A DNA stretch of 48,664 bases from a virus (Duplodnaviria > Heunggongvirae > Uroviricota > Caudoviricetes), in the IMG/VR virus record IMGVR_UViG_3300029686_000225, one strand, 5' to 3'. How positions within the stretch are numbered: the first letter of the stretch is position 1; each line of letters begins with the position of its first letter. Shown in pieces: positions 28,219-28,803 of this stretch. Made by a program: the position numbers and the translations under genes. The notes under the pieces are model-generated. The model saw nothing but the letters and a program-made list of their open reading frames with translations. It was not told the origin of the DNA and ran no database searches.

Positions 28219-28476
28219 CAATTTATCTTCCTGTTTAGATAATTAGGGAAAACATAAATACGAAAACTCAAATAATATTCCCAATTTATACCATCCAGAT
28301 CATTGAATCGTGTTTTAAACGTAGAAAAAAAATCCAATGTATGTAAGAAATAACATAATATGTTAAATATTCTAAATCCGTATAATAACCTAAAAATGTT
28401 CAAGCATGCCGATGCATACATCACAAGATATATGGTTTAGTTTACAGTTAACAAACAACAAAAGGAGATCTATAGT

Positions 28477-28803
28477 ATGACTGAGTGGACAAATGATCTT
28501 ATATCTGCACTTGTTTATTGTGATGCTGACAACGATATTATTGAAACCCTCCAGCAATTAAGCGCCCAACAGCTCCTGAATGGTTGGAATATTACCAAGA
28601 CAGATATTCCTGGGTCCTATCCGTGGTGCTTAACCAGGGACGGTATCAGTGTTCATCTTCAACAATGCCAAAAGAATATTGCTAAGACGGTTAATGTCCT
28701 TCCTGTTGATAGCGAGGAGAACGCATCAAAATCAAATAAATACATCAATGAACTACATGAAATTTTCAATGATACTAATGGGATTTTAGAAAGCTTCATC
28801 TGA
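28477..28803 (+). CDS. hypothetical protein (AT-rich moron)
   Basis: 108-aa ORF with AAGGAG RBS in an AT-rich island, opposite to the surrounding late genes. Confidence 0.55.
   Translation: MTEWTNDLISALVYCDADNDIIETLQQLSAQQLLNGWNITKTDIPGSYPWCLTRDGISVHLQQCQKNIAKTVNVLPVDSEENASKSNKYINELHEIFNDTNGILESFI

What the first reader, a model, noticed from the sequence alone, without database searches (positions are those of the whole stretch)
28230..28803. AT-rich island with an oppositely oriented gene inside the late operon
Between HNH and the lysis-proximal genes the base composition drops sharply and a 108-aa gene with its own RBS is read on the plus strand against the late transcription direction. 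This is typical of horizontally acquired morons.
Basis: seen in the sequence. Interest (0 to 1): 0.4.

Follow-up and report, generated by a model that had tools for sequence, protein, structure and literature searches.

The report
Extra foreign gene inside a prophage
A 0.6-kb AT-rich insert in a phiP27-like E. coli prophage carries one small backward-facing gene, which is an ordinary kind of phage cargo (a "moron"); its acidic protein belongs to a rare, undescribed family that sits at the same spot, just before the DNA-packaging genes, in several unrelated phages.

Summary
Window 28219-28804 is 34% GC against 49% for the window, and it is the lowest-GC 611-bp stretch in all 48.6 kb. It carries a 108-aa ORF (28477-28803, + strand, AAGGAG RBS) antisense to the late operon.

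Phage phiP27 and close E. coli prophages have only 61 bp, or different small genes, at this point. The island is therefore variable cargo in a mosaic slot between the L33-like gene's hairpin and the HNH start codon.

The island is absent from 5,426 complete E. coli genomes, 50,697 phage records and 72,556 plasmids. The exact protein was found on 24 contigs, and in all ten examined it sits in this slot.

The ORF is a real gene:
- An exhaustive HMMER search found a small family (27-59% identity).
- AlphaFold on an 18-sequence alignment gave pLDDT 90.
- Morganella orthologues show dN/dS 0.14.

In five phage lineages with non-homologous packaging modules, a family member lies after the lysis genes and before terS, always antisense. 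This is the geometry of lambda bor.

Verdict: a horizontally acquired moron. Its product is probably a non-enzymatic, acidic, cytoplasmic binding protein. The promoter, the timing of expression and the target are unknown. It is a new member of a known kind, of modest interest.

The parts
28219..28804 (.). Island-specific DNA (about 586 bp, 34% GC). It is absent from phiP27 and replaced by other cargo in related E. coli prophages.
   Evidence: Homology to phiP27 and four E. coli prophages stops at 28218-28224 on the left. It resumes at 28805-28807 (L012, L014) or at 28835 (phiP27, L013, L015) on the right. Composition. No match in E. coli genomes, phages or plasmids. No flanking direct or inverted repeats.
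28222..28476 (+). The 255-bp, 27% GC region upstream of the ORF. It must hold the ORF's promoter, but the promoter is inferred, not identified. Candidates are a perfect TATAAT at 28381-28386 with a poor -35, and TTAACA-17-TATAGT at 28448-28476, which ends at the ATG and so is badly placed.
   Evidence: The best PWM score was reached by 12 of 300 shuffles. No Rfam family matched.
28462..28467 (+). Shine-Dalgarno sequence AAGGAG, 9 nt before the ATG.
   Evidence: Read directly from the sequence.
28477..28803 (+). The 108-aa gene (identical to WP_069905843.1, 'hypothetical protein'). The product is acidic (pI 4.3, net charge -9), has no signal peptide or TM segment, and is predicted to fold as a beta-alpha-beta4-alpha-beta sandwich.
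28817..28846 (+). GC-rich hairpin (10-11 bp stem, 8-nt loop) followed by AATATCTGTTATT. It is terminator-like on the + strand. It lies between the convergent 108-aa gene and the L33-like gene. It is a backbone element, shared with prophages that carry other cargo.
   Evidence: I6.
27868..28218 (-). HNH endonuclease gene of the packaging module (116 aa). Its start codon (28216-28218) abuts the island. Its RBS, AGGAAG (28227-28232, - strand), lies inside island DNA.
   Evidence: Pfam HNH, E = 8.5e-17. Gene call. Junction. Sequence.
28855..29151 (-). L33-like 98-aa late gene of unknown function (PHROG 1935). It is the right-hand neighbour of the slot and is convergent with the 108-aa gene.

Best explanation
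The feature is a horizontally acquired accessory cassette (a moron) occupying a mosaic slot of a phiP27-like (HK97-type) prophage. The slot lies between the hairpin that follows the L33-like late gene and the start codon of the HNH-terS-terL packaging module.

Shown:
- The cassette consists of a very AT-rich leader and one gene read against the late operon.
- Its transcript can therefore only come from a promoter of its own.
- The gene encodes a real, folded, 108-aa, strongly acidic, cytoplasmic alpha/beta protein.
- No invariant charged or catalytic residue is present in the family alignment.

Inferred:
- The protein acts stoichiometrically, by binding and blocking or modulating another macromolecule, rather than as an enzyme.
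- It is expressed independently of the late genes, most likely from the resident prophage. This is how lambda bor behaves, and bor occupies the same position in the same orientation.
- Its role is accessory and conflict-related, for example interference with other phages or mobile elements, or with a host system. It is not part of virion production.

The target is unknown.
For: Insertion and mosaic slot:
- phiP27 has 61 bp between HNH (L34) and L33.
- Homology breaks exactly at the HNH ATG and at the ORF stop or the hairpin.
- Related E. coli prophages fill the slot with other genes: a 66-aa gene on the + strand, a 98-aa gene on the - strand, or 66-aa plus 100-aa genes on the - strand.
- Only 26 of 1,013 matching E. 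coli genomes have the contiguous empty junction.

Foreign composition:
- The island is the lowest-GC stretch of the window, with GC3 0.38.
- Family genes stay at 38-42% GC in roughly 50% GC phages, but match the background in Proteus-type phages.

Rarity:
- Absent from 5,426 complete E. coli genomes, INPHARED phages and PLSDB plasmids.
- The exact protein was found on 24 contigs, and in all ten shown it is in this slot.

Real gene:
- Homologues at 27-59% identity.
- AlphaFold pLDDT 89.9 and pTM 0.82 from 18 sequences, against 41.7 from the single sequence.
- dN/dS 0.14 between Morganella alleles.
- An RBS is present, and four of the five other phage or chromosomal contexts folded also have a strong hairpin after the stop codon; the Proteus-type phage L023 does not.

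Non-enzymatic, soluble and acidic:
- Conserved columns are mostly hydrophobic or Gly/Asn; only W37 and A69 are invariant in the 16-sequence alignment.
- pI 4.3, net charge -9, maximum 19-aa hydropathy 0.6.

Accessory nature:
- Members sit in the same post-lysis, pre-terS antisense position in five phage lineages whose packaging modules are not homologous.
- Morganella copies are often 75-aa deletion variants.

Moron definition: extra DNA, deviant GC, own promoter and terminator, expression from the prophage (PMC3594210).
Against: - No convincing sigma-70 promoter was found. The best consensus match ends at the ATG and is matched by 4% of shuffles.
- The hairpin 'terminator' has a poor T-tract and belongs to the backbone.
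- Nothing here shows expression in the lysogen.
- The Morganella orthologues are chromosomal and under purifying selection. This could point to a cellular function rather than a phage-conflict one.
Confidence: 0.6

Rival explanations
1. It is an early, 'first-in' anti-defence gene. The gene is the last one before cos or pac and reads inward from the genome end that is packaged last and injected first. A host-recognised promoter would then express the acidic protein before the rest of the genome enters. The protein would act as an inhibitor, possibly a DNA mimic, of a host nuclease or defence system, as T7 Ocr does.
For: - In phiP27 the cos site lies between HNH and terS, so the island is about 0.4-1.0 kb from the right virion end.
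- In L021 the packaging genes match phages whose records start with terS.
- The geometry is conserved in five phage lineages.
- The protein is small, with pI 4.3, net charge -9 and no catalytic residues.
- That the last-packaged end of lambda-type phages is injected first, and that Ocr is the first T7 gene to enter, is established knowledge and was not tested here.
Against: - Lambda bor has the same geometry and is a lysogeny-expressed gene, so geometry does not discriminate.
- No similarity to any known anti-defence protein or DNA mimic was found.
- Several family members are near neutral (pI 6.3-6.8).
- Headful phages such as the P22-like L017 have permuted ends.
- The Morganella copies are chromosomal.
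Confidence: 0.15
2. It is a packaging or lysis accessory factor. Its constant position next to terS or HNH would reflect a role in terminase or cos function, or in coupling lysis to packaging.
For: It is always adjacent to the packaging module.
Against: - It is antisense to the late operon, so it is not co-expressed with terminase.
- It is absent from phiP27, a viable phage, and from nearly all relatives.
- The neighbouring packaging proteins belong to four or five non-homologous types, so a common partner is unlikely.
- Chromosomal Morganella copies lie away from any terminase gene.
Confidence: 0.07
3. It is mainly a cis-acting or antisense element. The AT-rich DNA and its convergent transcription would damp read-through into HNH-terminase or the lysis genes in the lysogen, possibly through H-NS binding. 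The protein would be secondary.
For: - The leader is 27% GC.
- The ORF is convergent with the L33-like gene and antisense to the late transcript that must cross it to reach HNH, whose RBS lies inside the island.
Against: - The protein sequence, not the DNA, is what is conserved across lineages.
- dN/dS is 0.14 and the fold is predicted with confidence.
- Upstream regions in other lineages are not especially AT-rich: 44-48% in L017, L021 and L024.
Confidence: 0.05
4. It is a chance ORF in AT-rich junk or spacer DNA.
For: There is no annotation in any family library and no detectable promoter.
Against: - The stop-free run is reached in only 0.35% of shuffles.
- Homologues occur in Escherichia, Proteus, Morganella and other phages.
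- AlphaFold pLDDT is 90 with the alignment, and dN/dS is 0.14.
Confidence: 0.02

Closest known systems
Lambda bor (a moron between the lysis genes Rz/Rz1 and cos, transcribed against the late operon and expressed in lysogens)
   Same: Same place in the genome map (after the lysis cassette, before cos and terS) and same antisense, inward-reading orientation. It is a single small gene and is dispensable for phage growth. Bor as a moron product is cited from PMC3594210; bor's position and orientation are from established knowledge of the lambda map.
   Different: Bor is an outer-membrane lipoprotein with a signal peptide and lipobox. The 108-aa protein has no hydrophobic N-terminus (maximum hydropathy 0.6), is acidic and cytoplasmic, and matches no Pfam family, Lambda_Bor included. 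It is not a homologue.
HK97 gene 15 moron (the prototype moron; a superinfection-exclusion protein)
   Same: Extra DNA relative to sister phages, deviant GC, a single small gene inside a late operon of an HK97-type phage (definition in PMC3594210).
   Different: HK97 gene 15 lies in the tail operon (PMC3594210). From my own knowledge, it is co-oriented with the late genes and encodes a membrane protein. Here the gene is antisense, lies at the lysis/packaging junction, and encodes a soluble protein. No sequence similarity was found.
Other cargo in the same HNH-upstream slot of phiP27-like E. coli prophages (66-aa, 98-aa and 100-aa hypothetical proteins)
   Same: Same insertion point with the same backbone hairpin and the same boundary at the HNH start. 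All are small and unannotated. Slot GC is 40-46%, below the flanks.
   Different: They are unrelated in sequence. Only the 66-aa gene shares the + orientation. The island studied here is the most AT-rich of them.
KA1 (kinase-associated 1) and TBP-like alpha+beta sandwich domains

Membership tests
Moron (Juhala/Hendrix; Cumby, Davidson and Maxwell 2012, PMC3594210) | Extra DNA compared with closely related phages | tested here: met
   phiP27 has 61 bp where the window has about 586 bp more. The flanks are 94-96% identical.
Moron | [quoted passage not shown] | tested here: met
   34.0% against 49.1%. It is the lowest 611-bp stretch in the window. GC3 is 0.38 against 0.47-0.62.
Moron | Own promoter | tested here: inconclusive
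   The antisense orientation makes a separate promoter necessary, but only weak or misplaced sigma-70 matches were found.
Moron | Own terminator | tested here: inconclusive
   A hairpin at 28817-28846, 14 nt after the stop codon, was flagged as terminator-like on the + strand. However, it is backbone DNA shared with other slot variants and its T-tract is weak. Four of the five other phage or chromosomal contexts folded also have a strong hairpin after the stop codon; the Proteus-type phage L023 does not.
Moron | Expressed from the repressed prophage | not testable with these tools
   This needs transcript data from a lysogen.
Lambda Bor lipoprotein family | Sequence homology (Pfam Lambda_Bor) and an N-terminal signal peptide with a lipobox cysteine | tested here: not met
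   No Pfam hit at E <= 0.1. The N-terminus is MTEWTNDLISALVY, with no hydrophobic signal.
Known anti-phage defence proteins (PADLOC-DB) | Match to a defence-system HMM | tested here: not met
   0 families at E <= 1.
KA1 domain | Significant structural or sequence similarity plus a basic ligand-binding surface | tested here: not met
Transposable element or IS-borne cargo | Terminal inverted repeats, target-site duplication, transposase | tested here: not met
   No flanking repeats beyond chance-level 10-20-mers, and no transposase ORF.
Toxin-antitoxin pair | Two adjacent co-oriented small genes | tested here: not met
   The cassette holds a single gene. In the window and in three of the four other phage lineages the adjacent genes are on the opposite strand. 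Two contexts have a co-oriented gene downstream: the 67-aa HEAT-repeat gene in P22-like L017, about 270 nt away, and the Gly-zipper gene in Morganella, about 110 nt away. Neither partner recurs in another lineage.

The most novel reading that the evidence does not exclude
The family is a position-locked 'genome-end' gene of temperate Enterobacterales phages. It is always the last gene before cos or pac and reads inward. It would therefore be on the first DNA to enter the cell and would be expressed before anything else. Its acidic product would act as an Ocr-like pre-early inhibitor of a host nuclease or defence system. This would be a temperate-phage counterpart of T7 gene 0.3 or of plasmid leading-region anti-defence genes, carried by an undescribed protein family.
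Probability: 0.12. Interest if true: 0.65.

Novelty: new member of a known kind. Interest (0 to 1): 0.3.

Why it matters
As a moron it is ordinary. Phage late operons are known to carry AT-rich, independently transcribed cargo at the lysis/packaging junction.

Three modest points add value:
- The ORF is shown to be a real, folded protein. It founds a small family with no entry in Pfam, NCBIfam, PHROGs or PADLOC and no PDB sequence match.
- The family keeps the same position and antisense orientation in five phage lineages whose neighbouring packaging genes are not homologous. This marks the slot, or the geometry, as selected.
- The slot upstream of the packaging HNH gene is defined to the base pair as a cargo-exchange point in phiP27-like prophages, the lineage that also carries Stx2e.

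If the protein proves to be a defence or anti-defence factor, it would add a new small inhibitor family.

Tried and rejected
- Searches of the 108-aa protein in Pfam, PHROGs, PADLOC and NCBIfam gave nothing. PHROG scans of all 18 family members gave no recurrent hit, so the weak phrog_12018 hit is treated as chance.
- tblastn against phage and plasmid records, and blastn (word size 11) against E. coli complete genomes, found no match.
- The word-indexed protein search found only the identical sequence. Homologues appeared only in the exhaustive HMMER search.
- Three long repetitive proteins in that result (P0002, P0009, P0010) were rejected as summed weak repeat hits. P0009 is polyubiquitin-like and P0010 is PKD-like. 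P0002 matched no Pfam family and was rejected only on its pattern of 53 short matched stretches.
- Single-sequence AlphaFold gave pLDDT 42 and was unusable.
- The genome-contig scan with P0003 found nothing.
- The promoter scan and my own PWM found no convincing site.
- Rfam gave no hit, and a repeat search found no transposon-like ends.
- The MAFFT alignment of the window against phiP27 misplaced the left flank. It was replaced by blastn junction mapping.
- Literature searches found no paper naming this protein.

Full report
**Setting**

The window is a phiP27-like, HK97-type prophage of E. coli, with its late genes on the - strand. In order they are:
- the Q antiterminator (33298-34119);
- two holins;
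- an M15 endolysin (30107-30490);
- small genes of unknown function;
- an L33-like 98-aa gene (28855-29151);
- HNH (27868-28218);
- P27-type terS (27238-27720);
- terL, portal, protease, capsid and tail genes.

The flanks of the finding are 94-96% identical to phage phiP27. phiP27 annotates its cos site between HNH and terS. The finding therefore lies near the right end of the virion chromosome, inside the Q-dependent late transcription unit.

**Observation**

The composition dip is real and extreme for this window.
- 28216-28826 is 34.0% GC against a mean of 49.1% (SD 4.9% for 611-bp windows).
- Only 0.08% of windows are as low, and the global minimum starts at 28204.
- The upstream 255 bp is 27% GC, and the ORF is 38.5% GC with GC3 0.38.

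The ORF is 28477-28803 on the + strand, 108 aa. AAGGAG lies 9 nt before the ATG. A hairpin at 28817-28846 follows it.

**Insertion and slot**

phiP27 has 61 bp between HNH (L34) and L33. Junction mapping against phiP27 and four E. coli prophages gives two boundaries.
- On the left, homology ends at 28218-28224. This is exactly at the HNH start codon (28216-28218), so the HNH RBS, AGGAAG at 28227-28232 on the - strand, is island DNA.
- On the right, homology resumes at 28805-28807 (L012, L014) or at 28835 (phiP27, L013, L015). The first position is directly after the ORF stop codon. The second is inside the hairpin.

The hairpin is therefore a backbone element, and the island-specific DNA is 28219-28804.

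Other prophages fill the same slot with a 66-aa + strand gene, a 98-aa - strand gene, or 66-aa plus 100-aa - strand genes. All are unannotated. Only 26 of 1,013 E. coli genomes that match the phiP27 junction have it contiguous. There are no transposon-like repeats and no Rfam family. This is a mosaic cargo slot with joints at gene boundaries.

**Rarity**

The island has no match in 5,426 complete E. coli genomes at blastn word size 11. The protein has no tblastn match in 50,697 phage records or 72,556 plasmids. The exact protein (WP_069905843.1, 'hypothetical protein') was found on 24 contigs. In all ten examined it sits in this slot of this prophage type, and the nine that span the whole 1.3-kb region (27868-29210) are at least 99.8% identical to the window across it.

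**The gene is real and founds a small family**

The word-indexed search found only the identical sequence. An exhaustive HMMER pass over 1.84 billion cluster representatives found about ten small proteins of 83-171 aa at 26-59% identity. It also returned three repetitive artefacts.

In the 10-sequence alignment M1, W37 and A69 are invariant. I21, L25, G36, L52, L61, N67, P76, N87, L93 and I103 are nearly invariant. The motif N-I-A-x-T-S-N-V-L-P is conserved in most phage members. No conserved charged or nucleophilic residue suggests catalysis.

AlphaFold went from pLDDT 41.7 with the single sequence to 89.9 (pTM 0.82) with 18 sequences. Two Morganella alleles differ by 32 synonymous and 19 non-synonymous changes, giving dN/dS 0.14.

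The protein has pI 4.3, net charge -9 and no hydrophobic segment.

**Context of relatives**

Members with usable context fall into five phage lineages.
1. This phiP27-like prophage, with P27 terS and HNH.
2. A lambdoid with DUF1441 terS and GpA terL, 79% identical to mEp213/mEp043 (L021).
3. A phage with Terminase_2 terS related to Erwinia EhrS_49 and to Klebsiella prophages (L024, L025).
4. Proteus-type prophages, including Proteus columbae. Here the gene lies between the Rz spanin and a long Terminase_2 terS (L022, L023, L026).
5. A P22-like phage with gp3 terS (L017).

In all five lineages the gene lies after the lysis genes and before the packaging genes, on the strand opposite to them. 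The flanking genes are not homologous between lineages.

In phages of about 50% GC the gene stays at 38-42% GC. In Proteus-type phages (38-42% GC) it matches its surroundings. This suggests, but does not prove, an origin among low-GC Morganellaceae phages.

Morganella morganii has chromosomal 118-aa orthologues next to variable prophages. Many of these are 75-aa internal-deletion variants, and one is a chimera with a tail-fibre gene.

**Mechanism**

Three things are shown: the cassette is an insertion, it is antisense, and it encodes a folded, acidic, soluble protein with no catalytic signature.

Three things are inferred:
- It has a promoter of its own. This follows from the orientation, but none could be identified. 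The best sigma-70 match ends at the ATG and is matched by 4% of shuffles.
- It is expressed independently of late genes, most likely in the lysogen. Lambda bor occupies the same position and orientation. The moron definition and Bor are in PMC3594210.
- It works by binding a partner.

Patchy distribution, cargo turnover in the slot, frequent decay in Morganella and a TIR-domain gene inserted nearby in one relative all fit an accessory role, probably in conflict with other elements.

Rivals:
- An early, first-injected anti-defence protein. The geometry and acidity fit, but bor shows that the geometry is not diagnostic.
- A packaging accessory factor. This is unlikely because the gene is antisense, is absent from phiP27, and has non-homologous neighbours.
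- A mainly cis or antisense regulatory element. This is unlikely because the protein, not the DNA, is conserved.
- A chance ORF. This is refuted by the family evidence.

**Verdict**

The feature is a horizontally acquired moron. It is a new member of a known kind, carrying an undescribed small protein family with a notably fixed position. Interest is modest.

Noticed in passing
window about 11,260-26,045 (- strand); terL halves at 26045-27238 and 10531-11256: A satellite of about 15 kb, resembling a capsid-forming PICI, is inserted inside the prophage's terL gene and splits it. The N-terminal part is 397 aa and the C-terminal part holds nuclease-domain positions 64-283. The satellite encodes an integrase (24831-26075), AlpA, Bro-N, DUF4222, a DUF927 primase (19504-21627), SSB, a ProQ/FinO protein, a capsid protein, an S78 protease, a portal protein, its own HNH, a P27-type terS and terL (11783-13444). 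The same arrangement occurs on contigs L003 and L005. Other contigs have the same prophage and island with an intact 585-aa terL.
   Followed up: partly
window 32022-32609 (- strand): An AraC-family (HTH_18) regulator gene sits between the Q antiterminator and the holins, in a 42-45% GC stretch. This is the slot where phiP27 carries stx2e. It is probably a second moron in the classic post-Q position.
   Followed up: no
window 35948-39149 (- strand): A long low-GC stretch (34-41% GC, as low as the island) covers a C5 DNA methylase gene (365 aa) and an adjacent 703-aa HATPase_c_3 gene in the early region. This is possibly a defence or epigenetic cargo pair.
   Followed up: no
L023 4875-5729 (Proteus-type phage, IMGVR_UViG_2857244064_000009): A 284-aa TIR-domain protein (TIR_2, E = 2e-31) is inserted between terS and terL, in the same phage that carries a family member upstream of terS. 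In the related Proteus columbae prophage L026, terL follows terS directly and no ORF occupies that position.
   Followed up: partly
window 27790-27850: The region equivalent to the annotated phiP27 cos site (GGGGCGGGCG) differs in the window (GGC-GGCGGT), although the surrounding sequence is conserved. The exact cohesive-end sequence of this prophage may therefore differ.
   Followed up: partly
Morganella proteins P0023 and P0041: Many Morganella strains carry a 75-aa internal-deletion form of the family gene. One contig has a chimera of an E217 gp32-like tail-fibre N-terminus fused to the gene's C-terminus. This indicates a deletion joining a neighbouring prophage to the gene.
   Followed up: partly
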